A stretch of 64,000 nucleotides of DNA from a bacterium (GTDB lineage Bacteria; Patescibacteriota; Minisyncoccia; Phycocordibacterales; Phycocordibacteraceae), in the NCBI GenBank assembly GCA_037200965.1, contig JBBCGK010000001.1, forward strand, positions 672,001-736,000, written 5' to 3'. Positions 14,634 through 62,991 of this stretch are shown piece after piece (the first letter of the stretch is position 1; every line of letters begins with the position of its first letter). A program made the translations under genes and the position numbers. The notes under the pieces were generated by a model. The model saw nothing but the letters and a program-made list of their open reading frames with translations, was not told the DNA's origin and did no database searches.

Positions 14634-16022
14634 ATGCCGTTTCGCATCACTCCCTATGGCGGAGCCGATTCCGTCACCGGTTCGAACTTTCTGATAGAAG
14701 GAAGCGGCGGCGGGAAGATTCTCGTCGACTGCGGCATCGAGCAGGGGAGGGATGTTTCGGAGGCGGATACGTACGCCCCTTTTCCGTACGATGCGTCCCA
14801 GATAGACGCGCTCGTGATAACGCACGCGCATCTCGATCACGTGGGCCGCTGCCCGAAGCTCGCAAAGGAGGGATTCAGGGGCAGGGTATATATGACGCCG
14901 CCGACGCGCGATCTGGCGGAACTTATCCTTCGCGACAGCGCCGGCATCCTCGCGCAGGAAGCGCAGATGCGGCATCTGCCCCTTCTTTATACCGACGAGG
15001 ACGTGACGCGGTTCTTCTCGCTCGTCGAAACGCTCGAATACCACACGGAGAAAGAAATCGCTCCCGGCCTTTCGGTCTGTCTCCGGAACACCGGCCATAT
15101 CCTCGGCTCCGCAAGCGTCCGGATACGGGATGCGTCGGGCTCCTCCCTCGCCCTTACGGGCGACATCGGCAACTCGCCCTCTCCCTTTCTTCCCGACGCC
15201 GAACCGATTCCGGACGCCGGCGCCCTGCTTATGGAAAGCGTGTACGGCGACCGGCTGCATCCGCACCTTGCCGATCGTGTCGCGGAGCTTCGCGATACCC
15301 TGAAGCGGGCGATAGCGCGGGGAGGAACCATTCTCATCCCTTCGTTCTCGATGGAGCGCACGCAGCTCATGCTCTACGAATTCTCGAACCTCATGGCCGC
15401 GGGAGAGATCCCGAAGATTCCCGTATTCCTCGATTCCCCGCTCGCGATCGGCGTCACCGCCGTATACGAGAAATGGGGAAGTACGTATTTCAAGCAGGAG
15501 GCGAAAGAGGAGCTCGAGCGGGAAGGCAGCATTTTCAATTTCCCGTTTCTCAAGATGACATCCTCGCGCGAGCAGTCGGAGGGAATTGCGGCCGCGCCTG
15601 ACCCGAAGATCATCATCGCGGGGGCGGGCATGAGCCACGGAGGGCGCATAGGGGCGCACGAGGCCCGCTATCTGCCGTTTCCGACGACGACCCTCATCAT
15701 GGTCGGATACCAGGCGCCGGGGACTCCCGGGCGGCTCATGCAGGAAGGCGCTCCTTCCGTGCGGCTCGGGGGCCGGGAGGTGCGCATACGGGCCAAGATA
15801 GAGACCCTGTCAGGCTGGTCGGCGCACGCGGACCGCGACGGGCTCATGAAGTTTGTCGAAGCCTGTCTTCCGGGGACGAAGACGTTTTTCGTCGCGATCG
15901 GGGAGCCTTCCGCCGAGCGTTTCCTCGCCCAGCGCATTCATGACACCTTCAGTGTTCGCACTATCGTACCGGAGACGGGGGAGGGGTGGGAGATAGGGAA
16001 AGATTCGATTCATAGGGTATAG
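14634..16022 (+). CDS. MBL-fold beta-CASP RNA-metabolising hydrolase (RNase J / CPSF-like)
   Basis: HAHLDHVG metallo-beta-lactamase motif, a beta-CASP-like C-terminal half and a late His (SAHADRDGL). Confidence 0.75.
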   Translation: MPFRITPYGGADSVTGSNFLIEGSGGGKILVDCGIEQGRDVSEADTYAPFPYDASQIDALVITHAHLDHVGRCPKLAKEGFRGRVYMTPPTRDLAELILRDSAGILAQEAQMRHLPLLYTDEDVTRFFSLVETLEYHTEKEIAPGLSVCLRNTGHILGSASVRIRDASGSSLALTGDIGNSPSPFLPDAEPIPDAGALLMESVYGDRLHPHLADRVAELRDTLKRAIARGGTILIPSFSMERTQLMLYEFSNLMAAGEIPKIPVFLDSPLAIGVTAVYEKWGSTYFKQEAKEELEREGSIFNFPFLKMTSSREQSEGIAAAPDPKIIIAGAGMSHGGRIGAHEARYLPFPTTTLIMVGYQAPGTPGRLMQEGAPSVRLGGREVRIRAKIETLSGWSAHADRDGLMKFVEACLPGTKTFFVAIGEPSAERFLAQRIHDTFSVRTIVPETGEGWEIGKDSIHRV

Positions 16023-16031
16023 TCTTGCTAT

Positions 16032-17813
16032 ATGCCCGATTCTCGCGGCGCGTCCACGCAGCTTTCTCCCGAACGCCACGCTACTCCCTTCGCGTTTTTC
16101 CTCGCGACGAATCGTCAGGAAGTGAAATGGCTTGGCTTGAGCGCGCTTTCTTATAGTTTTGCGGCGGCGGCCATGCTCGCCGCTACCTATGCGCTTGGCC
16201 AGGCGGTGGATTTGCTCCCCCCCCCCCCCCCCTCGCACGGACCAATCCGCCTACTCCTTATCGGCGCGATCCTCGGTTTTGTTTGCTATGAACTTGGGTT
16301 CCGTGTCGGGCACATAATTGAAGTCCTTGCTTCCTCGCGTATACGTGCCAGAACGAAACAGGCGCTCTTTGACCACGTGACGGGACTTTCGTACGGCTAT
16401 TTCGTGGACCGGTTTTCCGGGCAGATCGCGCATAAGATCTCGGCGACGACCGACGCGCTCGAACGGATGACATTGCGCGTCACGAATGATTTTATAGAGG
16501 AGGGCGCGTTGGTATTGATAAGCGCCGCTACACTTTCTCTCATCAGCCCCTACTTCGGGCTGTTCGTGCTTGTCTGGGGGGTGCTGTTGTGCCTTGGCAC
16601 GCTTCCGTATGCGAAGCGGATGAACGCGCGGGCGAACGAATACGCGGACGTGGAATCAAAAACCACCGGCGTCTTCGTCGACTTCTTCGGCAATATAGCG
16701 GCAGTGAAAGTGTACGGAGGTACGCGAAGCCGCACGTCCGTCCATGATCAGATCGAGGAAGAGAAGCGCTCCTTTCGGGCGCTCGGCTTTTGGGCGGTGC
16801 TGTCATACAACTATATGGGTTTGTCGGTCGTCGTTCTCGGCGCGGGGCTCATCGCCATCACTTCGTACTTGTATGCCCACACGCTTATCACCCTGGGGAG
16901 TATCCTGTTCGTGATGGCGACGGGGCTTCGCCTCTCGAACGTCTCGTGGGAACTCGGGAAAAGCGTCATAGATTTCATCCGCGAGCGCGGGGAATGCCAG
17001 CAGAATCTCGAAGACCTCATCGTTGCGCCCGTCGTGACCGATCGGGCGGTCTCTCCTCAACATGCGCATACGCAGGCACGCGTCGAATATCGGGACGTAA
17101 CGTTTTCATACAATACCGGCCGGCCGGTACTCGCCGATTTCTCGCTCTGCGTGTCCGCGGGAGAGAAAGTCGGTATCGTCGGGCGTTCGGGCGCGGGAAA
17201 AACCACGCTTGCGAATCTGCTCCTCCGGTTCTTTGACGCGAACAAAGGGGCGGTGCTGTTAAACGATGTCGATGTCCGCGACTTGTCGCAGCAGTATCTC
17301 CGCTCCCACCTTTCCTATATTTCACAGGATACGTCCTTGTTTCATGCAAGCGTACGGGACAATATCGCGTACGGGGTGCCTGACGCGCCGCAGGAAGACG
17401 TAGAAAGCGCCGCGCGGCTTGCGTATGCTGACGAATTCATACACGCGCTCCCGCAAGGGTACGACAGCGTCGTCGGCGAGCGCGGCGTAAAGCTCTCGGG
17501 CGGCCAGCGCCAGCGCATCGCTATCGCCCGCGCCATCCTTGCGGACCGTCCCCTCTTCCTTCTTGACGAGGCGACGAGCGCGCTCGACAGCGACAGCGAG
17601 TCGAAAATCCAGGTCGGTCTCGCGGCCCTTATGGAAGGGAAGACCGTCATCGCCATCGCGCACCGTCTCTCGACCCTTTCGCGCATGGACCGCATCATTT
17701 ATCTGGAAGAGGGAAGGATTATCGAAGACGGAGCGCACGAAGAACTGCTGGCGCTGAACGGAAGATACGCCGAACTTTGGCGCATGCAGGCGGGCGGGTT
17801 CCTTCCCTCATAA
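16032..17813 (+). CDS. ABC exporter, fused permease plus ATP-binding domain (MsbA/MdlB-like)
   Basis: Six-TM N-terminal half, then Walker A GRSGAGKTT, signature LSGGQRQRIAIARA and Walker B LLLDEATSALD. Confidence 0.85.
   Translation: MPDSRGASTQLSPERHATPFAFFLATNRQEVKWLGLSALSYSFAAAAMLAATYALGQAVDLLPPPPPSHGPIRLLLIGAILGFVCYELGFRVGHIIEVLASSRIRARTKQALFDHVTGLSYGYFVDRFSGQIAHKISATTDALERMTLRVTNDFIEEGALVLISAATLSLISPYFGLFVLVWGVLLCLGTLPYAKRMNARANEYADVESKTTGVFVDFFGNIAAVKVYGGTRSRTSVHDQIEEEKRSFRALGFWAVLSYNYMGLSVVVLGAGLIAITSYLYAHTLITLGSILFVMATGLRLSNVSWELGKSVIDFIRERGECQQNLEDLIVAPVVTDRAVSPQHAHTQARVEYRDVTFSYNTGRPVLADFSLCVSAGEKVGIVGRSGAGKTTLANLLLRFFDANKGAVLLNDVDVRDLSQQYLRSHLSYISQDTSLFHASVRDNIAYGVPDAPQEDVESAARLAYADEFIHALPQGYDSVVGERGVKLSGGQRQRIAIARAILADRPLFLLDEATSALDSDSESKIQVGLAALMEGKTVIAIAHRLSTLSRMDRIIYLEEGRIIEDGAHEELLALNGRYAELWRMQAGGFLPS
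16217..16232 (+). repeat. homopolymeric C16 tract inside the ABC exporter ORF (encodes PPPPP)
   Basis: Counted directly: c at 16217-16232. Confidence 0.9.
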
Positions 17814-25070: not shown

Positions 25071-26324
25071 CTATACCGCGCGCTCCGGCGGCGGGGGAGG
25101 GGCAAGCCGGAGATGGCGCAGGCTCGAACGGGCGCCCCGCCGCGTATGGAAGAAGAACACGATCGCGAGGAAGCAGGCGATGGTCGCGAGAAGAGAGGCA
25201 AGAAGCGGGAAGCCCATGAAATCAAGCGCAACGCCAAGCATCACGGGCGCGGCCAGGTCGCTTATGCCGCCGATAACGGAGAATACCGATTCGAGCCGCC
25301 CATAGTGGTCGGGAGGCGTGAGCGCGGTCGCGAGGCTCTTTTGGAGAATGGAAAGGAATTCGACCAGCGTGCCGATAAGGAGGCCGCCCGCGACCGTAAC
25401 CGCGTACGGCAGGGGAAGAGCGAGCGCGGCGAGAACGAGCGCCATGAGGCCGCACAATATTGCCGCAAGCCGCGCCTTCTCGCCGCGGTCGGCAATCTTG
25501 CCGAGAAGGTAGCCGAAGAGGGACGGGATGCCCATCACGACCGTAAAGAGAATCACGAGCGAGAGGTTTCCGGTCGTGAAATAGATATCGATCGGAATGA
25601 AGAACTCGACGAGCACCACGACCACCTCGGTAAACAGAAGGAGCATGGCAAGGAGCCGGAGATCGCTGTTCCAGGTCTTCCATTCATCGATGGCCGAGCG
25701 GTATGCGTGCCGGAGCGGAAGCTTCTTCGCCGCGTTTGCGAGCGCCGGATGGTCCTTCCTGATCCGCAGCACGAACGGAAGCGCGAGGAGCGCGGTCGGG
25801 GCGACGAGGAACAAAAGCGCCTGGATCGAGAAGTATTTTATGAGGAGGATCCCGGCGAGCGCCGCGGCGAGCCACCCGAAATTCGAAAGAGTGTCGAGGA
25901 GCCCGAACGAGGAGGCGATAGTGCTCCCCGGAGCCATGCGGCGGATATAGGTATCGATGCCGGTCGAATCGAGGCCCCAGGCGATGCCGTTGAGCCCCCG
26001 CGCGACGACGACGAACGCCACGAGCCCGGTCATGCCCGCGATGAAATAAAAAAGACCGACGAAAGGATAAATGCACAGTCCGATGATCACGAGCCATTTC
26101 GCGCTCATGCGCTCCGCGAGGAGCCCGAGCACCGGTATCGCGAGGAGAAGCGTCACTTCGTAGCTTGAGCGCACGAGCCCGGCTTCGCCGAAGCTTCCCG
26201 TGAGCTGCATGATGAGGATGGGAATGAGCGATTCGCCGAATCCCCAGCCGACATAGCGTATCGTCCGCGCGTACGCGAGCGAACGCACCCCGGCGAGGGA
26301 ATAAGAAAGACGGCGGCGGAACAT
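25071..26324 (-). CDS. MFS transporter
   Basis: 12-TM hydrophobic profile; start set at MFRRRLSYS. Confidence 0.7.
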   Translation of the reverse strand: MFRRRLSYSLAGVRSLAYARTIRYVGWGFGESLIPILIMQLTGSFGEAGLVRSSYEVTLLLAIPVLGLLAERMSAKWLVIIGLCIYPFVGLFYFIAGMTGLVAFVVVARGLNGIAWGLDSTGIDTYIRRMAPGSTIASSFGLLDTLSNFGWLAAALAGILLIKYFSIQALLFLVAPTALLALPFVLRIRKDHPALANAAKKLPLRHAYRSAIDEWKTWNSDLRLLAMLLLFTEVVVVLVEFFIPIDIYFTTGNLSLVILFTVVMGIPSLFGYLLGKIADRGEKARLAAILCGLMALVLAALALPLPYAVTVAGGLLIGTLVEFLSILQKSLATALTPPDHYGRLESVFSVIGGISDLAAPVMLGVALDFMGFPLLASLLATIACFLAIVFFFHTRRGARSSLRHLRLAPPPPPERAV

Positions 26325-26395
26325 GGGAGAAGTATAGCGTGGACAACACAAAAGCCGTCTCACAGGAGACGGCTTTTGTTGATTCCAGAACCGTA

Positions 26396-29252: not shown

Positions 29253-29654
29253 ATGCATCTTCGTACGGGCGCGTTTCCCCTCCTTCTCCTTCGCTACACC
29301 TATGTCGCGTTCTTGTCGGTCATGAGCATCGATAAGCTGCTTCACTTCAATGTCGTCGATGCGTGGGAGCGGTTCGCCGGGCCGGTGGTGCATGCGATTC
29401 TTCCGGTAAGCACGGTCGCGATCGTCTCCATCGAGGGAGTCGTCGAGATCGCCATCATCGCCCTCCTCCTTACCAGGTGGTACCGCATCGGCGCGCTCGT
29501 TCTCTTCCTCGCCATCATCCCGGTCTGGATCGATCTCATGATTCTCGGTTTCTACGATCTCGCGCTTCACGATCTCGTCGTTTCCGCGGGCGCCATCGCG
29601 CTCGTCCTCCTTCCTCCTCCGGAGGAGAAGCCTCCGCTTGTTCAGGCGGCATAA
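29253..29654 (+). CDS. small membrane protein (possibly DoxX-like)
   Basis: 3-4 TM helices; the start codon is uncertain. Confidence 0.4.
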   Translation: MHLRTGAFPLLLLRYTYVAFLSVMSIDKLLHFNVVDAWERFAGPVVHAILPVSTVAIVSIEGVVEIAIIALLLTRWYRIGALVLFLAIIPVWIDLMILGFYDLALHDLVVSAGAIALVLLPPPEEKPPLVQAA

Positions 29655-29710
29655 GGTTCACCGTGCGTTCACGGCCGAAGACGCACCATGGGTGGCCTAT
29701 ACTTAGAGCT

Positions 29711-30964
29711 ATGCGAAGAAACTATAGTATCGCGATCGTCATCCTTGCCGTCGTCGTTATCGGCGGTTATTTCACGTACCAATACCTCAAGCAAAAGCCT
29801 CCGGCGTTCCTCATAGAACTCCTCACGAAGACCAGGCCTCCTCCGCCCCTGCCCGCGGGCGACGCCGCGCCCCTGTCGGTATCCGAAGGATTTTCCGCGA
29901 CCATCTTCTCGCGCGCGGTGCCGGGCGCCCGCGTCATGATCCGCGACCCGAAGGGAACAATGCTCGTTTCCGAGACTTCGCAGGGAAGAGTGGTCGCGCT
30001 TCCCGATCCCGATGCCGACGGAAAGGCCGATAAGGTTGTGACCATGCTTGAGCAGCTCGATCAGCCGCACGGCCTCGCGGTTGTCTGTCCGGACACGGGG
30101 AACGCGAGCGCCGACCAGGGCGCGTGCAGGCTGTATGTCGCCGAGACCGGCAGCCTGAAATCCTATGCGTACGACGCCGATACCTATACGGCAAGTGATC
30201 CGGTTTCGGTCGCGGCTTTTCCGACCGGCAGCGGCCACTTCACGCGCACCATCCTTCCGGGTGCCGACGGGAAGAGCCTCTTTGTCTCGGTCGGCTCGTC
30301 CTGCAACGTCTGCATCGAGACGAATCCGCTCCGGGCGACCATCCAGAAGCTCGATCTCGCGACGGGGAAGATGGCGGTATTCGCGAAAGGGCTCCGGAAT
30401 TCCGTCTTCATGGCCCTTAATCCGGTCTCGGGCGAGCTGTGGGCGACCGACAACGGCCGCGACGTGATCGGCGACGACATCCCGCCGGACGACGTGAACA
30501 TCGTGCGCGAAGGCGGCGACTACGGATGGCCCCTCTGCTACGGACAGAATGTCCATGACACCGACTTCGATACCAAGCAATATCTTGTCGATCCGTGCGC
30601 GGGCAAAATCCCGTCGCATATAGAGCTTCCCGCGCATTCTGCAGCGCTTGGTCTCGCGTTCGTGCCGGAAGAAGGATGGCCTGATGGCTGGGGCAACGAT
30701 CTACTTGTCGCATTCCACGGCTCCTGGAACCGCTCGATCCCCACGGGCTACAAGGTTGTCCGCATCGATCTTGATGACAAGGGTAACGAAATCGGTTCTC
30801 TGCAGGATTTCGTCACCGGCTTCCTCCCCGCGAGTTCCCACGATACCGATGATGCTATCGGAAGGCCCGTCGGACTTCTCGCCGAGCCCGGCGGCGTGGT
30901 CTATGTCTCAGACGACCGTGCGGGCGCGGTTTATCGCGTGGCGCGTACGGAAGAGGCGAGATAG
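29711..30964 (+). CDS. PQQ-dependent sugar dehydrogenase (soluble aldose/sorbosone dehydrogenase family), membrane-anchored
   Basis: N-terminal TM followed by beta-propeller blocks (PHGLAV, NGRDVIGDDIPPDDVN, GDYGWPLCYGQ). Confidence 0.7.
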   Translation: MRRNYSIAIVILAVVVIGGYFTYQYLKQKPPAFLIELLTKTRPPPPLPAGDAAPLSVSEGFSATIFSRAVPGARVMIRDPKGTMLVSETSQGRVVALPDPDADGKADKVVTMLEQLDQPHGLAVVCPDTGNASADQGACRLYVAETGSLKSYAYDADTYTASDPVSVAAFPTGSGHFTRTILPGADGKSLFVSVGSSCNVCIETNPLRATIQKLDLATGKMAVFAKGLRNSVFMALNPVSGELWATDNGRDVIGDDIPPDDVNIVREGGDYGWPLCYGQNVHDTDFDTKQYLVDPCAGKIPSHIELPAHSAALGLAFVPEEGWPDGWGNDLLVAFHGSWNRSIPTGYKVVRIDLDDKGNEIGSLQDFVTGFLPASSHDTDDAIGRPVGLLAEPGGVVYVSDDRAGAVYRVARTEEAR

Positions 30965-37397: not shown

Positions 37398-38159
37398 ATG
37401 GAACTCAACAAATCCCTTGAAGCTTTGGGCTTCTCATCAAAGGAGATTCAGGTTTATTTGGCGGTGATAAAGCTCGGTAAGACTACTCCAGCCGAAGTGG
37501 CGAAGATTACGAAAATCGGCCGCCCCACGGTCTATAATCTTGTTAAGAGTCTTATATCGAAGGGTGTGATAGCGGAGGATAAGGCCGATGCTGTGCTGCA
37601 CATCGTCGCACTGCCTCCCGAAGGCCTCCGAGCTACTATCGAACGGTCCAAGGTCGAGCTTTCAAAGAAAGAAGAACTTGTTGATGCGGCTATCGAAGAG
37701 CTTGGACTCATCCACTCAGGCGAGACCTATCCGGTGCCGCGCCTCCGTTTCGTGGAGGAGAACGAGCTACACGATTACCTTTTTCAGAATGCGGTTAAGT
37801 GGAATGAAAGCGTCCTCTCTAAGGACGGAATCTGGTACGGCTTCCAAGACCATAGTTTCGTAGAGAATTATGGAGATTGGATTGATTGGACGGTAAAGAA
37901 ACTCAAGGGAACGAAGTACAAGGTTCAACTATTCAGCAACGCTTCGAAAATTGAGGAACAGTTAGAAGGGAAGATCCCAGAGCGCTCAATCAAGTTCCTA
38001 AAGAGCTCTCGCTTTACGGCAACTACCTGGGTGGTAGGGGATTACCTCGTGATGATCTCAACCTCGAAGGCCCCGTTCTATTTGGTGGAGATTCACGATG
38101 CTCTTATGGCAGAGAATATGCGCGAAGTGTTTAAGAATATGTGGGAGATAAATAAATAA
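37398..38159 (+). CDS. TrmB-family transcriptional regulator
   Basis: The N-terminus ALGFSSKEIQVYLAVIKLGKTTPAEVAKITKIGRPTVYNLVKSLISKGV is a typical TrmB winged helix. Confidence 0.65.
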   Translation: MELNKSLEALGFSSKEIQVYLAVIKLGKTTPAEVAKITKIGRPTVYNLVKSLISKGVIAEDKADAVLHIVALPPEGLRATIERSKVELSKKEELVDAAIEELGLIHSGETYPVPRLRFVEENELHDYLFQNAVKWNESVLSKDGIWYGFQDHSFVENYGDWIDWTVKKLKGTKYKVQLFSNASKIEEQLEGKIPERSIKFLKSSRFTATTWVVGDYLVMISTSKAPFYLVEIHDALMAENMREVFKNMWEINK

Positions 38160-38164
38160 GAATT

Positions 38165-38725
38165 ATGGATCGATACCTTGATCAGTGGGCGCGAATTAAC
38201 CGCTGGCATAGAAAAGTCAATACTTTTTATGAAGGAGAGAGAAGTGTTCTTGAGGATAATGAAAGATTGGATATGGTCCGAACTTTTTTCATAGAATGCT
38301 TTCATTTAAAGGATTGGATCAAAGCTGACTTTCCGAATCTTTCAGTAGCTACCGAAAGAATATTTGATCGAGTAGAAGGCGAGGAATGTTTCAAAATTTG
38401 TGCAGACCTAGCGAATGCATCGAAACACGTGGATCTTAATAAGGCAGTCAGAAAAGATAAAGAAACTAAAATCGGTACTCAAGGAATTACAATCATGGTT
38501 GATCCTATTAAATGGGATTCAGACCCGAAGGATTATTTGCCGCCCGTGTGTAAATACCGATGGGACATCATAGCGTCAAGGAAGAAGTTTGATGTAAAAG
38601 AGCTAGCCGATGAGTGTATTGAGAGTTGGAAGAAGTTTATGCGCAAGAATGGACTATCTATAGAGATTGTTGCTCGATTGTCCATTCCAATAGATGGAAC
38701 ATCTTTTGATGCCAAAGCGTCTTAG
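38165..38725 (+). CDS. hypothetical protein (186 aa), AT-rich
   Basis: Starts 5 nt after the TrmB stop; no recognisable domain. Confidence 0.45.
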   Translation: MDRYLDQWARINRWHRKVNTFYEGERSVLEDNERLDMVRTFFIECFHLKDWIKADFPNLSVATERIFDRVEGEECFKICADLANASKHVDLNKAVRKDKETKIGTQGITIMVDPIKWDSDPKDYLPPVCKYRWDIIASRKKFDVKELADECIESWKKFMRKNGLSIEIVARLSIPIDGTSFDAKAS

Positions 38726-38787
38726 TACCGAAAGTAACAGTGATACTCCAGTCGTTTAAGAGATTACGGGAGAGGTGGAGGAAAGTT

Positions 38788-38985
38788 CCTAGCGGGTGCT
38801 TTTATGAAACTAGGTGGAATTGGATATCCGAGATAAGAACCTCGCTGATACTAAACAGCTCCTCATATTTCCTTCGTGTAGTGGATGACTGGGTATCAAA
38901 ATGAGCATACAAAAGCCAATACGTGCTTATAGGGTGCCCAAAACTAGGCGGAGGGGTTAGAACCTCCCATATTTTGGTAGTATTA
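38788..38985. repeat. copy 2 of the ~150-bp repeated element
   Basis: See copy 1; ~80 percent identity over the conserved blocks. Confidence 0.8.
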
Positions 38986-38990
38986 TCTAC

Positions 38991-39497
38991 ATGAAGATCG
39001 AATGGCTCGGAAAACGAATAGCAGTGGTTGGAGTAAGCGCATCAGGAAAATCAACTTTTGCGCGCAGACTTGCTACTAAGACTGGTCTGCCCCTGACGCA
39101 CATTGATGCCGTGATGTGGAAGCCGGGATGGGATTATATTGGCGATGAAGAAACAGTCCGCCAGCTCAAAGAAATCAGCAAGCAGGATGAATGGATCATC
39201 GAAGGATTCATCGATAAGAATGCTCTCGAAGCAGTTCTGACTCGTGCCGAATCAATAATCTATCTCGACTATCCGCGATACATACCTGCGTGGAGATACA
39301 TAAAACGATGGTTTAAGCATCGAAAGAATCCGCGCCCAGAATTGGAGGGCAGTCCAGAGAAATTCAGCTTTGAATTTCTGAAGCGGGTATGGGATAAGAA
39401 GGAAGTCTATCGGCTAAACGAATTTATTAAGAAAATGCCTGATACAAGCAAGATTCTGAGGCTCAAGTTGCCGAAGGAAGCAAATACTTTTCTATGA
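38991..39497 (+). CDS. P-loop NTPase/kinase (AAA_33 / topology-modulation-like)
   Basis: IAVVGVSASGKSTFARRLA Walker A; ~170 aa small kinase fold. Confidence 0.55.
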   Translation: MKIEWLGKRIAVVGVSASGKSTFARRLATKTGLPLTHIDAVMWKPGWDYIGDEETVRQLKEISKQDEWIIEGFIDKNALEAVLTRAESIIYLDYPRYIPAWRYIKRWFKHRKNPRPELEGSPEKFSFEFLKRVWDKKEVYRLNEFIKKMPDTSKILRLKLPKEANTFL

Positions 39498-39509
39498 GAG
39501 TAGTTACAT

Positions 39510-40028
39510 ATGGCTAGACTTATTATTCTCAATGGACCTCCTGGTGTAGGCAAATCTACGATTGCTGCACGTCTGCATAAGGATATTTCAAATTCGATAC
39601 TTCTGGATATAGATGAGATTCGTCGCTCCATTCCAAATTATAAAGAGCAACGTAAGGAAAGTCTGATTCTGGCGTATCAGGAGGCAATGCGGACCATAGA
39701 AGACTGTTTAGCTAAAGATCAGACCGTTATTATAGATAAGGTTGTTTCGGACTCAGATACACTCGATTCTTTTGTTGAGGCAGGGAATAAACAGGGTGTC
39801 GTAATAAATGAGATTCTCCTATTTGCAGACAAGGAATCAGTACAGAAGCGAGCAGACGAGCGTGGTTACAAACCAGGAAGTTTACTTACCCGTGAGCGAG
39901 TAGGAGACATGTGGGATCAAGTGAGTGTACTCAGAAGAAGTAGGAATAACGCTGTTGTTATGGATACGACTCATTTAAATCTTGAAGAAGTGTACAAAAA
40001 TGTAAGAGGAATAATCGGGCAAGTATAA
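39510..40028 (+). CDS. P-loop NTPase/kinase (AAA_33 / zeta-toxin-like fold)
   Basis: IILNGPPGVGKSTIAARL Walker A; ~170 aa. Confidence 0.55.
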   Translation: MARLIILNGPPGVGKSTIAARLHKDISNSILLDIDEIRRSIPNYKEQRKESLILAYQEAMRTIEDCLAKDQTVIIDKVVSDSDTLDSFVEAGNKQGVVINEILLFADKESVQKRADERGYKPGSLLTRERVGDMWDQVSVLRRSRNNAVVMDTTHLNLEEVYKNVRGIIGQV

Positions 40029-40154
40029 CCCGCCGGTAGGGGTGGAAGAGAAGTCCGGAATTTCTGAGAAGTTTCTGCAGAAAGTTAGAACCCCCAATCT
40101 GTTAAGACGCGCCAACACGAATGGTTACTTAACTCGGCCTTTCGTGAAATGATG

Positions 40155-40566
40155 TGGAGGTGGGGAGGTTGAACTCCCGTCCGACCTGCGCTTGAGAGCG
40201 AGTCTACGGCGCGTAGTTCCGATTAGGGTTTAAGAGAGGATGCGAGGAAACGGAACGAAACCATTCCCCTCCGATCCCGTTATCTAAGCCGCGGGCCGGG
40301 AGAGCCGCGAACCGATCGCACAGAAGATTCCGCCCGCTGGCCCGGCTGTGCGCACCCGGGACCAGGGACGTCGCTTAGGCGAGGTGAGCCGAAGCTCGAA
40401 CCTTATGCGTAAGCGAACGCGAAGTTCCCTGCGGTAAAGTAAGGAGACTTCACGCCTACAACAGTTTTGTTTGCAGGTAGAGTTTCCCGCCAGATTAAAG
40501 TGATGGGCGGGAGTGCACTGCGCCGCACGTCTCTCAAGGTACAGGCCGTCAAAGCCGGTCACCCCC
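40155..40566 (-). ncRNA. ssrA: tmRNA (ssrA)
   Basis: The minus strand begins GGGGGUGACCGGCUUUGACGG, matching the tmRNA 5' consensus GGGGxUGAxxxGGxUUCGACGG. It ends GGACGGGAGUUCAACCUCCCCACCUCCA, matching E. coli ...GGACGCGGGUUCAACUCCCGCCAGCUCCA. The acceptor stem GGGGGUG/CACCUCC pairs. An internal ORF GCA AAC AAA ... GCA UAA encodes the tag ANKTVVGVKSPYFTAGNFAFAYA. It lies directly downstream of smpB. Confidence 0.7.
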
Positions 40567-44383: not shown

Positions 44384-44455
44384 CCACCCATAGCTCAATG
44401 GTAGAGCGATCGACTTATATTCGATTGGCTCCAGGTTCGAGTCCTGGTGGGTGGA
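44384..44455 (+). tRNA. tRNA-Ile with anticodon UAU (reads AUA)
   Basis: Manually folded: acceptor CCACCCA/TGGGTGG, D-arm GCTC-AATGGTA-GAGC, anticodon stem ATCGA/TCGAT with loop CTTATAT (U33, anticodon TAT, A37), T-arm CCAGG-TTCGAGT-CCTGG, discriminator A. 72 nt. Confidence 0.6.
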
Positions 44456-45280
44456 CTACCGAGGGAATATATCAACGAGTTCGCCCGAACTATAAAAGTC
44501 CGCGGCAAGACCGCCGAAGCTATACGAAACACCGAGAATATCGATGGCCGCGCCGCCTACCTGCGGATTCGCGTTCGGGGTCGAATGCGCGAAGCCGATG
44601 TTGTAAAGCGTCGAGACGACCGCGGGGTTTCCTTCGATAGGGAAGCCCGCCTTCCTCCACTGCGCTTCCACCTCCTTTATATAGAGTCCCGCATAGAGAT
44701 AGCTCCAATAGTGGTCGTGCTGGTCGGTCATGCGCGCGAAGCGTTCGCTTTCTACGTCGGTCGTCCGGAAGTCGAGCGCGTGCCCGAACTCAGGCCCCGG
44801 ATAGTACGGCGAGGCCGGATCCTTCAGATTATTCTCCACTTGGATCGCCGTGTCTTCTTTCATCCCCATCACGCCCCAGGAAAACTGTGTCTGAGAACCC
44901 AGGATCTTGAGCGGATAGAAGAATTGCTTATAAAACTCCCGTTCCGTGAAGAAAAGCCGCAGCTGTTCGGCGACCAAATTCGCGGCGATGAGCCGCGCGG
45001 GAACGCCCGAGTCGGCAGCCGCCCGGTCGAGCGCCGCGGTATCTTTCCGAAGCGCCGCCTCGAGCACCTGCCATTCTTCGGTCTTCTGCCAGGGCGTGCC
45101 ACGCGGATCGCTAGGCGCGAAGTCGGTCGATGTCGCGGAACCGATGAACGCTTCGCGCTGGAGGTCGACGATGCCGCTCGTGTTGGTGAGTCCGAACCGG
45201 ACCGCGAAGTATCCGACGACGAGGAAGAAGCCGATCGCGGCGAATATATAAATGACGATCGAGACGACTTTCTTAAGCAT
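44456..45280 (-). CDS. hypothetical membrane-anchored protein (274 aa)
   Basis: N-terminal TM (VVSIVIYIFAAIGFFLVVGYFAV) followed by a large soluble domain. Confidence 0.5.
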   Translation of the reverse strand: MLKKVVSIVIYIFAAIGFFLVVGYFAVRFGLTNTSGIVDLQREAFIGSATSTDFAPSDPRGTPWQKTEEWQVLEAALRKDTAALDRAAADSGVPARLIAANLVAEQLRLFFTEREFYKQFFYPLKILGSQTQFSWGVMGMKEDTAIQVENNLKDPASPYYPGPEFGHALDFRTTDVESERFARMTDQHDHYWSYLYAGLYIKEVEAQWRKAGFPIEGNPAVVSTLYNIGFAHSTPNANPQVGGAAIDILGVSYSFGGLAADFYSSGELVDIFPR

Positions 45281-54011: not shown

Positions 54012-54101
54012 GGAGACGTGGCTGAGTGGTCGAAAGTACCTCACTGCTAACGAGGCAGGGATTAACGTCCCTCGAGGGTTCGAATCCCTCCGTCTCCGCC
54101 A
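54012..54101 (+). tRNA. tRNA-Ser(GCU), class II with a long variable arm and an encoded CCA
   Basis: GGAGACG acceptor, GCTGAGTGGTCGAAAGT D-arm, anticodon loop CTGCTAA, long variable arm, GGGTTCGAATCCC T-arm, CGTCTCC-G-CCA. Confidence 0.85.
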
Positions 54102-54155
54102 GATGTCCAAATTCGAACCCAAGCAGAATAAGGGTATTTGGACTAAGATAATGAC

Positions 54156-55250
54156 ATGGCAACCAAAACGGCAAATTCAGGTCTTCATCAGGCCAAAACT
54201 GCCAAAAAGGACGAGTTTTATACCCAACTCGTTGATATTGAAAAAGAGCTGAAACACTACAAGGACCAATTTCGTGGCAAGGTGATTTTTCTGAATTGTG
54301 ACGATCCGTACGAAAGCAACTTCTTCAAGTATTTCGCTGGTAATTTCAATGCTCTCGGATTAAAGCAGCTTATTGCCACGAGCTACAAGCGATCGCCTAT
54401 TGCCAACACCCAATTAGGACTCTTTACCGATGGTGAGGTAGTGTCCGCAACTAAAGGCCGCCCAAAAGTGACTGCCAACAAATTCGTTATTAACGAAGTT
54501 GATGACATAAATGGTGACGGTTCTTTTGACTTGCGTGATATTGCGGAGCAGCTTAAAGCTAATAAAAATAACGAATGGACTCCATTAGACGGCGAAGGAG
54601 ATTTTCGGAGTCCGGAGAGCGTAGAACTGCTCAAGCAAGCTGATATTGTGGTGACAAACCCGCCCTTCTCGCTTTTCGGCGAGTATATTGATCAACTTGT
54701 TCAATACCAGAAAAAGTTTCTGATATTAGGAAATCAGAACGCTATTAAATATAAAAATGTCTTCAAGCTTATAAAGGAGAATAGGATGTGGCTAGGCTAT
54801 GACAATGGAGGAACGAAATGGTTCCAGGTGCCGGATGACTATGATATACAAACCGAATCAAGAATCAAAATAGAAAACGGTGTGAAATATTTTAGTATGG
54901 GCAGCATTGTGTGGTTTACAAATCTTGACACAACGAAGCGTCACATAGATTTCACAATGTACAAAAAATACAAACCCGAAGCATATTCAAAGTACGATAA
55001 TTACGACGCGATCGAGGTTTCTAGGGTGGTAGAAATACCAATGGACTATGGCGGCGAAATGGGAGTTCCGATTACCTTTTTAGATAAATATAATCCTGAC
55101 CAATTTGAGATTATTGATCTGCTAAACCGATACACCTTGTTTGACTCTCAGCAAACGAACGAAGATGTCAGACGAAGGCACTCCCACACTTGTAATATCA
55201 ATGGCAAGGCCGTATTTTCTCGAATTTTAATAAAGAACAAGCAAATTTGA
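54156..55250 (+). CDS. N6-adenine DNA methyltransferase of the EcoRI-methylase family
   Basis: N-terminal KKDEFYTQLVDIEKELKHYKDQFRGKVIFLNCDDPYESNFFKYFA is typical of the EcoRI_methylase family; catalytic IVVTNPPFS motif. AT-rich. Confidence 0.65.
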   Translation: MATKTANSGLHQAKTAKKDEFYTQLVDIEKELKHYKDQFRGKVIFLNCDDPYESNFFKYFAGNFNALGLKQLIATSYKRSPIANTQLGLFTDGEVVSATKGRPKVTANKFVINEVDDINGDGSFDLRDIAEQLKANKNNEWTPLDGEGDFRSPESVELLKQADIVVTNPPFSLFGEYIDQLVQYQKKFLILGNQNAIKYKNVFKLIKENRMWLGYDNGGTKWFQVPDDYDIQTESRIKIENGVKYFSMGSIVWFTNLDTTKRHIDFTMYKKYKPEAYSKYDNYDAIEVSRVVEIPMDYGGEMGVPITFLDKYNPDQFEIIDLLNRYTLFDSQQTNEDVRRRHSHTCNINGKAVFSRILIKNKQI

Positions 55251-56362
55251 AAATAATTATGAAAATCGAGCTAAATAAGGTTTCGGTCCGTGAAGTGGTG
55301 GCAGAATATAAAGACAGCGCTGAGGAGGGTGTTGTGGCCTATGACGGTAAGCTCGATGTGCGCCCAAAGTATCAGCGAGAATTCGTATATAAAGACAAAC
55401 AACGCGATGCCGTTATTGATACTGTCAGAAAAGGGTTTCCACTTAACGTGATGTATTGGGTAAAGACCGACGAAGGAAATTTTGAAGTATTGGACGGGCA
55501 GCAGAGAACAATCAGTCTCGGTCAGTATGTAAACGGTGACTTCTCTGTTGATTTCAACGGTCGTCTGGCTATGTTCCACAACCTTACCAAAGAAGAGCAG
55601 GAGCAGATTCTGAACTATGAACTGATGATTTATTTCTGCGAAGGAAACGATAAGGAAAAGCTCGATTGGTTCAAGATCATCAATATTGGCGGTGAGCGTC
55701 TAACCGATCAGGAGTTACGCAATGCTGTCTATACCGGTCCGTGGCTTTCTGATGCCAAGCTCAAATTCAGTAAATCAAACTGTGCGGCATACCTCCTCGC
55801 AAACGATGGCGGTGCGCTGCTCAAGGGCTCTCCAATTCGGCAAGAATACTTGGAAACTGCGATCTCATGGATAAATAACGGGGATGTGGCGGGCTACATG
55901 GCAAAACACCAGCACGATGAGAATGCGGAAGAATTATGGAAGTACTTCCAAAGTGTTATTGAGTGGGTACGCAGGACCTTCCCAAACTACCGCAAAGAAA
56001 TGGCGAGCGTAAATTGGGGGGAACTATATAACGAATACAAAGACAAAAAACTCGACGACACAAAACTAGAAGAGGAAATCGCACGATTGATGCAAGACGA
56101 AGATGTAACGAAGAAATCCGGTATTTACCCTTATGTCCTTACGGGCGAGGAACATCACCTTTCAATCCGTGCGTTTAACGACAATATGAAGCGGGAGGCG
56201 TATGAGCGCCAGAAAGGTATCTGTGTGAAATGCGGGAAGAAGTTTGAGATCGAGGAAATGGAAGCCGACCACATTACACCGTGGCACCAGGGAGGAAAAA
56301 CAAAAGCCGAAAATTGCCAGATGCTATGTAAAGACGATAACCGGAGAAAATCTGGAAAATGA
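55247..56362 (+). CDS. DUF262 (ParB/Srx-like, DGQQR motif) N-domain fused to a C-terminal HNH endonuclease
   Basis: VLDGQQRTISL is the DUF262 hallmark. C-terminal CVKCGKKFEIEEMEADHITPWHQGGKTKAENCQMLCKDDNRRK is an HNH/zinc-finger nuclease motif. Its start overlaps the MTase stop (ATGA). Confidence 0.7.
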   Translation: MKIIMKIELNKVSVREVVAEYKDSAEEGVVAYDGKLDVRPKYQREFVYKDKQRDAVIDTVRKGFPLNVMYWVKTDEGNFEVLDGQQRTISLGQYVNGDFSVDFNGRLAMFHNLTKEEQEQILNYELMIYFCEGNDKEKLDWFKIINIGGERLTDQELRNAVYTGPWLSDAKLKFSKSNCAAYLLANDGGALLKGSPIRQEYLETAISWINNGDVAGYMAKHQHDENAEELWKYFQSVIEWVRRTFPNYRKEMASVNWGELYNEYKDKKLDDTKLEEEIARLMQDEDVTKKSGIYPYVLTGEEHHLSIRAFNDNMKREAYERQKGICVKCGKKFEIEEMEADHITPWHQGGKTKAENCQMLCKDDNRRKSGK

Positions 56363-56997
56363 TAATGAAACAAGGAGATCTCCATATCTGGGTAAGAAAA
56401 TTACTCCAACAGCTTCGTACCCAAACCGATTCAAAAGAAGATTTATATACAAATATTCTTCTCTGGGCACACGATAAGCAAGAGTCTGGATTCTCATGGG
56501 AGGAAATGAGATCAAAGTTCTCACTGAATGCAGAACAAGAACATTGGGTTAGGAATATTTTCCTAACTACTTCAGATGGAGATAGGAAATTCTTTGAACA
56601 TTTACGGAACGATGATTCCGTATCACCGAATATTTATTACTACGCTTTAAATGAAAAAGGGATCACAGCGGCAATAAACTACAAGGGCTTGCGACATGCT
56701 GAAAAGAGCAGCACCCAAGCGTTATGGGTCGCAAGTATATCTATTTTTCTGGCAGCTATCGGTTTGTTTTTTACAGTTAAACAAACGAATTTGGCCGAGA
56801 CCCAAAGTATCTCGGAAAGGATAAATCAAGCAAGGAGTATACAATCAGCGCTTGAATTCTGTCAGCAGAATCCTGATTCTCAAGATTCTGGTCTCTATGA
56901 GATCTCGACTGGTAAATCTGCTTCATGTCCTCAAGTAGTGCGTAACTATTCCTCTACCTCCTCACTGTTGGATAGAATCAAAAGTCTGTTTAAGTAA
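56359..56997 (+). CDS. hypothetical protein with one central TM helix; third gene of the operon
   Basis: Its start overlaps the previous stop (ATGA), and the AT-rich composition matches the two upstream genes. Confidence 0.4.
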   Translation: MIMKQGDLHIWVRKLLQQLRTQTDSKEDLYTNILLWAHDKQESGFSWEEMRSKFSLNAEQEHWVRNIFLTTSDGDRKFFEHLRNDDSVSPNIYYYALNEKGITAAINYKGLRHAEKSSTQALWVASISIFLAAIGLFFTVKQTNLAETQSISERINQARSIQSALEFCQQNPDSQDSGLYEISTGKSASCPQVVRNYSSTSSLLDRIKSLFK

Positions 56998-57260
56998 CTG
57001 GAGAATTCGGATTTATTCTATTGAATAATCGATCGCACTCTTTCTTTTAGACGATTTAGGCTGTGGCACCTCAAACCACTCCGGATGAGCTTTATATATA
57101 GCCCTCAATTCCTGTATACTTTTATCAAGTTTCCCGAAGGTAAGCCGTGTTTTTGGTTCGAATTTCGGGACACCGCCTCCGCATCTAACAGCTAGCACCA
57201 GGAACCTCGGGTCTAGCTGGTGTCTAAAAACATCCGGTACTTTCTCTTACTTGTTCAATA

Positions 57261-61206: not shown

Positions 61207-62991
61207 ATGAGCAACGCTCCACGTCAAAAGAAAGAAGAATCACCGTCGACCGTCACGGTGTTCCGCTTCGTGGCCGGCTATTGGAAGCGGCAGCCGAAGA
61301 AGCTGGCGCTCATCCTGTTCCTCTTCGTTACCGCGACCTTTCTCGAAGCGAAGCTCCCCGACGCGCTTTCGTCGTTCCTCGAATCGATCCGCGTCTACGA
61401 CCACGACCCCGCTCCGATACTGTGGTACTTGGGACTGTTCCTCGGCACCTATTTTTCGTACGTCATCCTCCGGAACGTGGCGTCCTTCGTCTATAACTCG
61501 TTTGAGACGCGCATCTTCACCGAACTCGTCAACGACATATTCGTGCACGTGCAGTACTTATCGGAGCGCTTCTTCGTGAACACGTTCGCCGGAAGCATTA
61601 TCACGAAGGTCAAGCGCGGGAGGGATCGGATCGAGACGTTCGAGGATCAACTCATACTCCGCCTCCTTCCGACCGCGGTCATCCTCACGAGCAGCGCCGT
61701 CCTTTTGTATTTCCGGTTTCCGACCCTTGCCATCGCGCTCGCCGCGTATCTGGTTATCGTGATCGTCGTAAGCGTGGTGATGGTCTTGCGGTTCGCGGGG
61801 CCAGCCCAGGGGCTCTATGCGAGCACGGAAGACGTATTCGGCGCTCATCTGGCGGACAGTATTGCCAGCATCGCGACGACGAAGGCGTACGCCCAGGAAC
61901 GGAAGGAGATCGGCAGGTTTTTTTCCGTCACGGAACTGTTGCGCGCGAGAAACCTGAGCGCCTACTACCGCGGGAACGCCACCGGCTTCCTTCAGCAGGC
62001 CATGCTCGGAGGAATGCTCGCGCTCCTTCTTGGGGGAGGCACGTGGTATTTCCTCCATGGCCAGGCAAGTATCGAAGACATGGCCTATCTTGCGTTCGCC
62101 TATAACATCATGCAGTCATACGTGCGGGAGGTCGGCGAGAATATCAAAAACCTCCTCACGTCGTCGTACGACCTGCACGCGGTCGTCGAACTCATGCAGG
62201 AAGTCCCGCATGTGCGGGATGCCCCGAACGCTCCCGCGCTTAACGTAGCCGGCGGCGCGATAGCGTGGAACGACGTCAGCTTTACCTATCCCGGGAAAAA
62301 GACTCCTATCTTCGAGCATTTTTCCCTTTCGATACGGGCTGGCGAGCGCGTCGCGCTTGTGGGGCACTCCGGAAGCGGCAAGACGACCTTCGTGCGGCTC
62401 CTCCAGCGCCTCTATGACGTGCAGGGCGGCGATATTCACATAGACGGACAGAATCTCAAGGAGATCGCGCAAAGCTCGCTTCGTAACGCGATCGCGCTTG
62501 TTCCCCAGGATCCCGTCCTCTTCCACCGGAGCCTCAAGGATAATATCGCGTACGCGACCCCGAACGCGACGCTCGACGACGTCAGGAGTGCCGCTACAAA
62601 AGCCCATATCGACGAGTTCATCATGCAGCTCCCCGAGCAGTACGAGACCCTGGTCGGCGAACGGGGCATCAAGTTATCGGGCGGAGAGCGTCAGCGCGTC
62701 GCTATCGCGCGCGCCATTCTCTCTGACCGGCCCATACTCATACTCGACGAGGCTACGAGCTCCCTGGACTCCGCGAGCGAACGGGCCATACAGGACGCGC
62801 TGCAGGCGCTCACCCACGGGCGCACGTCCATCATGGTGGCCCACCGCCTCTCGACCATCCAAGACGCCGATCGGATACTCGTCTTTGACGGCGGGCGCAT
62901 AATCGAGGAGGGAACCCATGCCGAGCTCGTCAAAAGGGAAAACGGAGCATACGCGCAGTTCTTCAAGCTCCAGTCGGGAGGATATGTTTGA
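61207..62991 (+). CDS. ABC exporter, fused permease plus ATP-binding domain
   Basis: Six-TM half, then Walker A GHSGSGKTT, LSGGERQRVAIARA and ILILDEATSSLD. Confidence 0.85.
   Translation: MSNAPRQKKEESPSTVTVFRFVAGYWKRQPKKLALILFLFVTATFLEAKLPDALSSFLESIRVYDHDPAPILWYLGLFLGTYFSYVILRNVASFVYNSFETRIFTELVNDIFVHVQYLSERFFVNTFAGSIITKVKRGRDRIETFEDQLILRLLPTAVILTSSAVLLYFRFPTLAIALAAYLVIVIVVSVVMVLRFAGPAQGLYASTEDVFGAHLADSIASIATTKAYAQERKEIGRFFSVTELLRARNLSAYYRGNATGFLQQAMLGGMLALLLGGGTWYFLHGQASIEDMAYLAFAYNIMQSYVREVGENIKNLLTSSYDLHAVVELMQEVPHVRDAPNAPALNVAGGAIAWNDVSFTYPGKKTPIFEHFSLSIRAGERVALVGHSGSGKTTFVRLLQRLYDVQGGDIHIDGQNLKEIAQSSLRNAIALVPQDPVLFHRSLKDNIAYATPNATLDDVRSAATKAHIDEFIMQLPEQYETLVGERGIKLSGGERQRVAIARAILSDRPILILDEATSSLDSASERAIQDALQALTHGRTSIMVAHRLSTIQDADRILVFDGGRIIEEGTHAELVKRENGAYAQFFKLQSGGYV

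What the first reader, a model, noticed from the sequence alone, without database searches (positions are those of the whole stretch)
16217..16232. C16 homopolymer inside the ABC exporter ORF: candidate slipped-strand phase-variation switch, or an assembly error
Sixteen consecutive C residues encode LPPPPPS, in frame, in the first periplasmic loop of the ABC exporter. Tracts this long are hypermutable by slipped-strand mispairing, and a +/-1 change would truncate the protein after ~70 residues. This matches the classic contingency-locus architecture, usually poly-G/C in surface or transport genes. It could equally be a sequencing-coverage artefact.
Basis: seen in the sequence. Interest (0 to 1): 0.6.

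Follow-up and report, generated by a model that had tools for sequence, protein, structure and literature searches.

The report
Slippage-prone poly-C run in exporter gene
A real run of about 16 cytosines sits in frame near the start of an ABC exporter gene of an uncultured Patescibacterium from deadwood; four assemblies of the same population report four different lengths, so it is a plausible on/off mutational switch, but real variation cannot yet be told from sequencing error.

Summary
Positions 16217-16232 are 16 consecutive C, the only homopolymer longer than 7 in the 64 kb window. They lie in frame (CTC CCCx5 TCG = L-PPPPP-S) in a 593-aa ABCB-type exporter. An AlphaFold model places them in the short loop between transmembrane helices 1 and 2.

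The window comes from an unpolished PacBio HiFi/hifiasm-meta co-assembly of deadwood metagenomes (JBBCBH010010897.1, a 960-kb Patescibacteria contig).

The tract is not an assembly invention. The same locus was recovered from a separate assembly of one HiFi run and from two Illumina assemblies. Its length differs in each:
- 16 in the window.
- 17 in the HiFi run (the only difference in 4,453 nt).
- 15 in an Illumina MAG, followed by error-ridden sequence.
- At least 20 at an Illumina contig end.

Only n = 3k+1 gives the full protein. Other lengths stop after 86 or 94 aa.

Eight orthologues (63-67% identical) encode S-P-T-P with mixed codons and carry no repeat, so the tract is lineage-specific.

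Verdict: a real hypermutable tract that very probably causes frameshift switching. Genuine population heterogeneity and adaptive value are unproven, because homopolymer length is the main HiFi error mode. It is a new member of a known kind, of moderate interest.

The parts
16217..16232 (+). Poly(C) tract, 16 C in this record (G16 on the template strand). Other assemblies of the same population give 15, 17 and at least 20.
   Evidence: sequence and statistics; other assemblies.
16032..17813 (+). ABCB-type (type IV fold) half-transporter gene, 593 aa, transmembrane domain plus nucleotide-binding domain. All family-invariant motif residues are intact.
   Evidence: PF00664 residues 38-293, PF00005 residues 368-516; PDB hits to ABCB1, MsbA, TM287/288; Walker A, LSGGQ, Walker B and H-loop columns are invariant and present in the query; AlphaFold2 pLDDT 88.7.
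16212..16238 (+). Codons 61-69 (L L P P P P P S H), the coil between TM helix 1 and TM helix 2. It is 2 codons longer than in the closest orthologues (L-S-P-T-P-H-G).
   Evidence: orthologue alignment and codons; coil 61-69, lower pLDDT in that block.
16289..16291 (+). TGA that ends the 86-aa product when the tract length is n = 3k+2 (for example C17).
   Evidence: and direct reading.
16315..16317 (+). TAA that ends the 94-aa product when the tract length is n = 3k (for example C15).
   Evidence: and direct reading.
16189..16191 (+). Out-of-frame ATG. When n = 3k+2 it opens a frame that reads through the tract into the ABC frame, giving a product without TM1. It has no obvious ribosome-binding site and is probably incidental. 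A gene caller used it on the C17 contig.
14634..16022 (+). Upstream beta-CASP metallo-beta-lactamase-fold gene, ending 9 nt before the ABC start codon (ABC ATG at 16032). It is a probable co-transcription partner, and it served as the handle to find the locus in other assemblies. The same adjacency occurs in one relative (L042).

Best explanation
The poly(C) tract is real and lineage-specific, nominally 16 nt and about 15-17 or more. It lies in the codons for the first extracytoplasmic loop of an ABCB-type exporter of a deadwood Patescibacterium.

Origin (inferred). The ancestral loop coding sequence was C-rich, S-P-T-P (TCN CCN ACN CCN). It became a pure C run by substitution and then grew by replication slippage, so it is now 6 nt longer than in the orthologues.

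Consequence (inferred from the length and from the general behaviour of long homopolymers). The run gains and loses bases at high frequency during replication. Lengths of 3k+1 (13, 16, 19) give the full 6-helix exporter with a Pro4-6 loop. Lengths of 3k+2 stop after 86 aa, and lengths of 3k stop after 94 aa. A population would therefore hold a shifting mixture of exporter-ON and exporter-OFF cells, which is a de facto phase-variable gene.

Shown here: the tract, its frame, its position in the loop, the outcome of each length, its absence from orthologues, its presence on two sequencing platforms, and disagreement on its length between assemblies.

Inferred, not shown: that the disagreement is at least partly biological, that switching occurs in vivo, and that it has any adaptive value.
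For: - The tract is a unique outlier, and it is in frame.
- It is seen independently in a Logan assembly of HiFi run SRR28211700, in a Logan assembly of Illumina run SRR10968228, and in Illumina MAG contig JAATEX010000078.1.
- The HiFi-run contig is identical to the window over 4,453 nt except for one extra C in the tract. The mutable site is therefore the only site that differs.
- The frame outcomes are 593 aa, 86 aa and 94 aa.
- The host loop varies in length among 70+ orthologues, so +/-3 nt changes should be tolerated.
- Other poly-Pro runs in the window use mixed codons (PPPPP = CCT CCC CCG CCG CCG; PPPP = CCT CCT CCG CCC). CCC makes up only 34% of Pro codons, so five CCC in a row has p of about 0.005. 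This points to a DNA-level slippage origin rather than selection for prolines.
- All invariant catalytic residues are intact, so the gene is not a decayed pseudogene.
- An N-terminal position is the pattern reported for switch-type repeats (PMC2831843; PMC3315296).
- Homopolymers longer than 10 are rare in bacteria (PMC9262707).
Against: - The only platform-credible length difference is 16 versus 17 in HiFi data. That is a single-base homopolymer miscount, the primary HiFi error mode.
- The Illumina lengths are unreliable. In L049 the 72 nt beyond the tract carry 12 differences from the window, against 2 in the other 4.7 kb, and L047 simply ends in a C run.
- No orthologue has a repeat at this position. 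No closer relative exists in the databases searched, so conservation of the tract could not be tested.
- No other long homopolymer occurs in the 64 kb window, so there is no sign of a genome-wide contingency-locus strategy.
- No read-level, expression or phenotype data were available.
Confidence: 0.55

Rival explanations
1. The tract is stable and the noise is purely technical. The organism carries one fixed in-frame tract length that encodes a Pro5 loop. All differences between assemblies are homopolymer sequencing or assembly errors, and the exporter is made constitutively.
For: Homopolymer length is the main HiFi error, and the error rate rises with length. The Illumina contigs show clear post-homopolymer error signatures. 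The deposited length is in frame, and the protein is otherwise intact.
Against: Homopolymeric tracts are established indel and frameshift hotspots (abstracts of PMC2831843 and PMC3315296), and variability rises steeply with repeat length (PMC3315296). From general knowledge, no studied bacterial poly-G/C tract of this length is genetically stable. The C17 path was the one retained in a separate k-mer assembly of one HiFi run. From how such assemblers work, this suggests C17 was not a rare read error there. Pure CCC codon use is unlike the other Pro runs in the window.
Confidence: 0.2
2. The tract is a neutral or deleterious accident on the way to gene loss. It is real and slips, but it is a recent mutational by-product in a dispensable exporter, since at least one paralogue exists. 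It is not a selected switch, and OFF variants are simply the first step of pseudogenisation.
For: The tract is absent from all orthologues. A second ABCB exporter lies in the same window. No other contingency-type tract occurs in 64 kb. Reduced-genome symbionts commonly lose genes (general knowledge).
Against: Apart from the tract, the gene shows no defect, and every invariant motif residue is kept. The deposited allele is in frame, although by chance alone that has probability 1/3.
Confidence: 0.2
3. The tract acts at the RNA or structural level rather than through DNA length change. RNA polymerase slippage on the 16-nt run would produce mixed-length transcripts, or the template-strand G16 could form a G-quadruplex. 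Either would throttle or buffer expression whatever the DNA length.
For: The run is longer than the roughly 9-bp RNA-DNA hybrid, so realignment costs no mismatch. Rescue of frameshifted genes by transcriptional slippage at long poly(A) tracts is known in insect endosymbionts. Both points rest on general knowledge and were not tested here.
Against: No transcript data were examined. Documented slippage mostly concerns A/T runs. This effect would add to DNA-level slippage rather than replace it.
Confidence: 0.05
4. The tract is a pure artefact, and no long C run exists in the organism.
For: A single unpolished long-read assembly could in principle contain such an error.
Against: The tract was found with identical flanks in four assemblies from two chemistries. 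Both flanks align continuously with the orthologues.
Confidence: 0.02

Closest known systems
Poly-G/C contingency loci of Campylobacter jejuni, Helicobacter pylori, Neisseria and Haemophilus (intragenic homopolymer frameshift switches)
   Same: An intragenic G/C homopolymer near the 5' end of a membrane or surface-related gene, where +/-1 nt gives an early stop. At 16 nt, the length lies at the upper end of what those organisms carry (general knowledge).
   Different: Those loci are conserved across strains and occur as sets of tens per genome, with measured switching rates and phenotypes. Here only one tract is seen in 64 kb, it is absent from all orthologues available, and no rate or phenotype is known. 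The host is an environmental Patescibacterium, not a host-adapted pathogen.
Mycobacterium tuberculosis homopolymer-tract phase variation (for example the 7C tract in glpK; PMC10334774, listed)
   Same: A reversible frameshift in a poly-C run inside a metabolic or transport gene of a high-GC organism that is not classically seen as phase-variable.
   Different: The Mtb tracts are short (about 7-9 nt) and were validated across thousands of isolates and by experiment. Here the tract is 16 nt and no isolates exist.
Listeria monocytogenes inlA 5' poly(A) tract (PMC2831843)
   Same: A homopolymer near the 5' end of the gene that yields a truncated product. It is lineage-restricted rather than species-wide.
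   Different: That case is poly(A), with truncation after 8 aa and a measured frameshift frequency about 1000 times the point-mutation frequency.
Mycoplasma fermentans P78 ABC-transporter lipoprotein, poly(A) frameshift phase variation (recalled from general knowledge, not checked here)
   Same: A homopolymer frameshift switch acting on an ABC transport system in a reduced-genome bacterium.
   Different: That switch affects the substrate-binding lipoprotein of an importer. Here it affects the fused TMD-NBD exporter itself.

Membership tests
Slipped-strand (simple-sequence-repeat) contingency locus | A repeat long enough to be hypermutable (homopolymer of about 8 nt or more) within an ORF or promoter | tested here: met
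   C16 at 16217-16232 inside ORF 16032..17813
Slipped-strand (simple-sequence-repeat) contingency locus | Length changes of the repeat switch the product between full-length and truncated | tested here: met
   In silico, n = 10, 13, 16 or 19 gives 591-594 aa. The other lengths give 83-96 aa.
Slipped-strand (simple-sequence-repeat) contingency locus | Repeat-length polymorphism within a population or between strains, beyond technical error | tested here: inconclusive
   Four assemblies of the same deadwood population give 15, 16, 17 and at least 20. The HiFi difference is a single base in HiFi's main error mode, and the Illumina contigs show post-homopolymer errors.
Slipped-strand (simple-sequence-repeat) contingency locus | The repeat is maintained in relatives or strains (evidence of selection for mutability) | tested here: not met
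   Eight orthologues (63-67% aa identity) encode S-P-T-P or variants with mixed codons, and their longest homopolymer is 6 or less. No closer relative was found, so same-species strains could not be examined.
Slipped-strand (simple-sequence-repeat) contingency locus | Reversible ON/OFF expression with a phenotype | not testable with these tools
   The organism is uncultured, and no read or transcript data are accessible here.
ABCB-type (type IV fold) ABC exporter half-transporter | An N-terminal ABC_membrane domain fused to a C-terminal ABC_tran ATPase | tested here: met
   PF00664 (E 2.6e-17) and PF00005 (E 6.9e-31). PDB sequence hits to ABCB1, MsbA and TM_0288.
ABCB-type (type IV fold) ABC exporter half-transporter | Intact Walker A, signature LSGGQ, Walker B D-E and H-loop | tested here: met
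   G384..K390 T392, L488 S489 G490 G491 Q492, D512 E513 and H544 are invariant columns in the 56-sequence alignment and are present in the query.
ABCB-type (type IV fold) ABC exporter half-transporter | Six long transmembrane helices, with the TM1-TM2 connection on the outer face | tested here: met
   The AlphaFold2 model has helices 19-60, 70-117, 129-171, 173-225, 231-282 and 288-329, with coil 61-69. That this coil faces outward is inferred from the known topology of the fold.
Sequencing or assembly artefact | The feature is absent from independent data or a second chemistry | tested here: not met
   The tract is present with identical flanks in HiFi-only and Illumina-only assemblies.

The most novel reading that the evidence does not exclude
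This would be the first documented contingency locus in the Candidate Phyla Radiation (Patescibacteria). On this reading, a selected hypermutable poly(C) switch lets an ultra-small, probably host-dependent bacterium toggle an envelope exporter stochastically, for example to vary what it secretes or exposes to a host or to phage. It would be testable at once with the existing HiFi reads and metatranscriptomes. Full-text searches found no paper linking Patescibacteria or CPR bacteria with homopolymer phase variation.
Probability: 0.25. Interest if true: 0.55.

Novelty: new member of a known kind. Interest (0 to 1): 0.35.

Why it matters
If the length variation is biological, slipped-strand phase variation would extend to an uncultured, reduced-genome lineage where it has not been described. 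Until now it has been studied almost only in host-adapted pathogens. It would also single out one exporter as worth following.

There is a practical point whatever the biology. The ON or OFF state of this gene in the public record is not trustworthy. The deposited Illumina MAG contig (JAATEX010000078.1) carries error-laden sequence next to the tract. Tracts like this break short-read assemblies and frameshift gene calls: the same gene is called as 593 aa in one assembly and from an out-of-frame ATG in another.

Tried and rejected
- A scan of JGI metagenome contigs with the two flanks and a variable gap gave 0 hits, so no strain variants are there.
- The search for related loci on genome contigs returned only distant ABC paralogues (25-59% identity in the best aligned segment) and not the source genome. 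It was useless for the loop comparison.
- The protein cluster of the exporter has one member, and no hit exceeds 67% identity at full length. No close relatives or in-frame length variants are therefore on record.
- I looked up ten hypothetical products for C13-C20 by exact sequence: full, alternative-start and N-terminal fragments. None was found. The positive control, the 444-aa product actually called on L046, was also not found, so this test is uninformative.
- The contig from GCA_015689235.1, which should also cross the tract, could not be read because its file is too large.
- I considered and rejected the idea that the tract marks a chimeric join or a misplaced start codon. Both flanks align continuously with the orthologues, and helix 1 lies upstream of the tract.
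- I considered and rejected selection for a polyproline loop as the reason for the run. Other poly-Pro runs use mixed codons.
- The shared contig break at about 17492-17519 in the Logan assemblies is probably a k-mer collision in the conserved LSGGQRQRI-coding region (inferred, not tested). It is not related to the tract.

Full report
**Observation**

Window positions 16217-16232 are 16 consecutive C. This is the only homopolymer above 7 nt in the 64 kb window, and the next longest C run is 6. The expected number of C runs of 16 or more is 7e-6 to 8e-5, depending on the background model. Tandem Repeats Finder reports no other microsatellite-type array of note.

The run is in frame in ORF 16032..17813 (+), 593 aa. 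It reads TTG CTC CCCx5 TCG = L L P P P P P S at residues 61-68.

**What the gene is**

The ORF has ABC_membrane (PF00664, residues 38-293) and ABC_tran (PF00005, residues 368-516). Its best solved relatives by sequence are ABCB1/ABCB4/ABCB19, MsbA and TM_0288. In a 56-sequence alignment, the Walker A, LSGGQ, Walker B and H-loop residues are invariant and are present in the query.

An AlphaFold2 model built on that alignment has mean pLDDT 88.7. It shows six long helices, with helix 19-60, coil 61-69 and helix 70-117. The tract therefore encodes the TM1-TM2 loop, which faces outward in this fold (inferred from known family topology). 'Extracytoplasmic' is the safer word than 'periplasmic'.

**Provenance**

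The exact protein is encoded once in the public collection, on NCBI JBBCBH010010897.1. That contig is 960,259 bp, and the window is contig 191302-255301.

JBBCBH is the hifiasm-meta co-assembly of PacBio Sequel II HiFi reads from four deadwood samples in the Czech Republic. No short-read polishing is described for it (PMC11613949). Homologues are annotated as Parcubacteria, Paceibacterota or Patescibacteria.

The window is ordinary core chromosome, with SecY, adenylate kinase, MetAP, NDK, FtsH, RecG and tmRNA. Long ORFs cover about 88% of it, so the assembly is not riddled with frameshifts.

**Relatives**

The nearest homologues are only 62-67% identical. In an alignment of more than 70 orthologues, the closest ones have D-L-L-S-P-T-P-H-G-D where the window has D-L-L-P-P-P-P-P-S-H-G-P. 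The window loop is two residues longer, and loop length varies across the family.

I fetched the DNA of eight orthologues. All encode the loop with mixed codons, for example TCC CCA ACG CCA and TCG CCC ACC CCA. None has a homopolymer above 6 in the gene or above 7 anywhere in the 47 kb fetched. The tract is therefore lineage-specific.

Within the window, other poly-Pro runs are written with mixed codons (PPPPP = CCT CCC CCG CCG CCG). CCC makes up 34% of Pro codons, so five CCC in a row has p of about 0.005. This points to a DNA-level origin rather than selection for prolines: a C-rich S-P-T-P stretch converted to a pure C run and then lengthened by slippage.

**Consequences of length change**

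Lengths 10, 13, 16 and 19 give the full protein. Length 3k+2 (for example 17) stops at TGA 16289-16291 after 86 aa. Length 3k (for example 15) stops at TAA 16315-16317 after 94 aa.

With 3k+2, an out-of-frame ATG at 16189 also opens a frame that reads through the tract into the ABC frame, giving a product without TM1. It has no evident ribosome-binding site and is probably incidental.

**Is the tract real, and is its length constant?**

This was the key test. An exact look-up of the upstream beta-CASP protein and of the downstream MFS protein recovered the same organism in other assemblies of the same site.

| Source | Platform | Tract | Comment |
|---|---|---|---|
| Window (hifiasm-meta co-assembly) | PacBio HiFi | C16 | in frame |
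| L046, Logan assembly of SRR28211700 | PacBio HiFi | C17 | only difference from the window in 4,453 nt; the gene caller then started the ABC ORF at the out-of-frame ATG |
| L047, Logan assembly of SRR10968228 | Illumina HiSeq | at least C20 | identical to the window for 1,890 nt, then the contig ends in the C run |
| L049, Illumina MAG contig JAATEX010000078.1 | Illumina | 15 | 12 differences in the 72 nt beyond the tract, mostly towards the homopolymer base, against 2 in the remaining 4.7 kb |

The L049 pattern is the signature of reads degrading after a long homopolymer. The existence of the tract is therefore confirmed on two chemistries, and it is not an assembly invention.

Its length, however, is different in every assembly. 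The Illumina values are not credible as lengths. [quoted passage not shown] The error rate rises with homopolymer length (PMC9713900), and homopolymers above 10 bp hold residual assembly errors (PMC12212083).

These tools cannot separate biological from technical heterogeneity.

**Mechanism**

Homopolymeric tracts are established frameshift hotspots, and their variability rises steeply with length (PMC2831843 and PMC3315296). Homopolymers above 10 are rare in bacterial genomes (PMC9262707).

A 15-17 nt C run is thus expected to gain and lose bases frequently, giving a population mix of exporter-ON and exporter-OFF cells. I rate this de facto phase-variable behaviour at about 0.55.

The main rivals are:
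- One fixed in-frame length, with all differences technical (0.2).
- A non-adaptive accident in a dispensable gene on its way to loss (0.2). A 33%-identical paralogous exporter lies at 61207..62991.

RNA-level slippage or G-quadruplex effects may add to either, but they were not tested.

**Comparison with known systems**

The locus works like the intragenic poly-G/C contingency loci of Campylobacter, Helicobacter, Neisseria and Haemophilus, like the poly-C switches of M. tuberculosis, and like the inlA poly(A) tract.

Membership of the contingency-locus class is not established:
- The repeat and the frame logic are met.
- Population polymorphism is inconclusive.
- Conservation in relatives is not met.
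- Reversible expression could not be tested.

Full-text searches found no report of homopolymer phase variation in Patescibacteria or CPR bacteria. If real, it would be a new member of a known kind in a new lineage.

**Verdict**

The tract is real, and its length in the record is uncertain by at least +/-1, so the ON state of the deposited gene is uncertain too. The switch hypothesis is plausible but unproven. Interest is moderate (0.35). The decisive analysis is a per-read tract-length tally in SRR28211698-SRR28211701, calibrated against other long G/C homopolymers in the same runs.

Noticed in passing
window 54012-57000: tRNA-Ser(gct) at 54012-54101 is followed by a low-GC block (43-46%, against about 59% elsewhere). 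The block carries an EcoRI-type adenine methyltransferase (54156-55250) and a GmrSD_N+HNH endonuclease (55247-56362). It looks like a small integrated restriction or defence islet at a tRNA.
   Followed up: partly
window 38000-40566: A low-GC block (42-47%) abuts the tmRNA gene (40154-40566, minus strand). It encodes zeta-toxin/AAA_33-like kinases (38991-39497, 39510-40028) and a Pfam-less ORF, and may be an island inserted at tmRNA.
   Followed up: partly
window 44384-44456: A tRNA-Ile with anticodon TAT. This is uncommon in bacteria, most of which decode AUA with a modified CAU tRNA (the rarity rests on general knowledge).
   Followed up: no
window 61207-62991: A second ABCB-type half-transporter, 594 aa and 33% identical to the focal one, with no homopolymer. 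It is a possible functional backup or heterodimer partner.
   Followed up: partly
L049 4725-4797 (JAATEX010000078.1), equivalent to window 16144-16216: The public Illumina MAG contig has 12 differences in the 72 nt beyond the tract, against 2 in the other 4.7 kb. Post-homopolymer read errors appear to be frozen into a deposited sequence.
   Followed up: yes
window 17492-17519: Logan contigs from both the HiFi run and the Illumina run break at the same place, inside the stretch coding for LSGGQRQRI. The likely cause is k-mers shared with other ABC genes in the metagenome, not biology.
   Followed up: partly
window 14634-16022 and L042 1-1004: A beta-CASP/MBL-fold nuclease-like gene sits immediately upstream of the exporter: the intergenic gap is 9 nt here (stop codon ends at 16022, ABC ATG at 16032), and the genes overlap by 4 nt in a 64%-identical relative. 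The reason for this conserved pairing is unknown.
   Followed up: no
window 25071-26363 (minus strand) and 29363-30964: Other poly-proline runs (PPPPP in an MFS transporter, PPPP in a GSDH-like protein) are encoded with mixed Pro codons, so they avoid homopolymers.
   Followed up: yes
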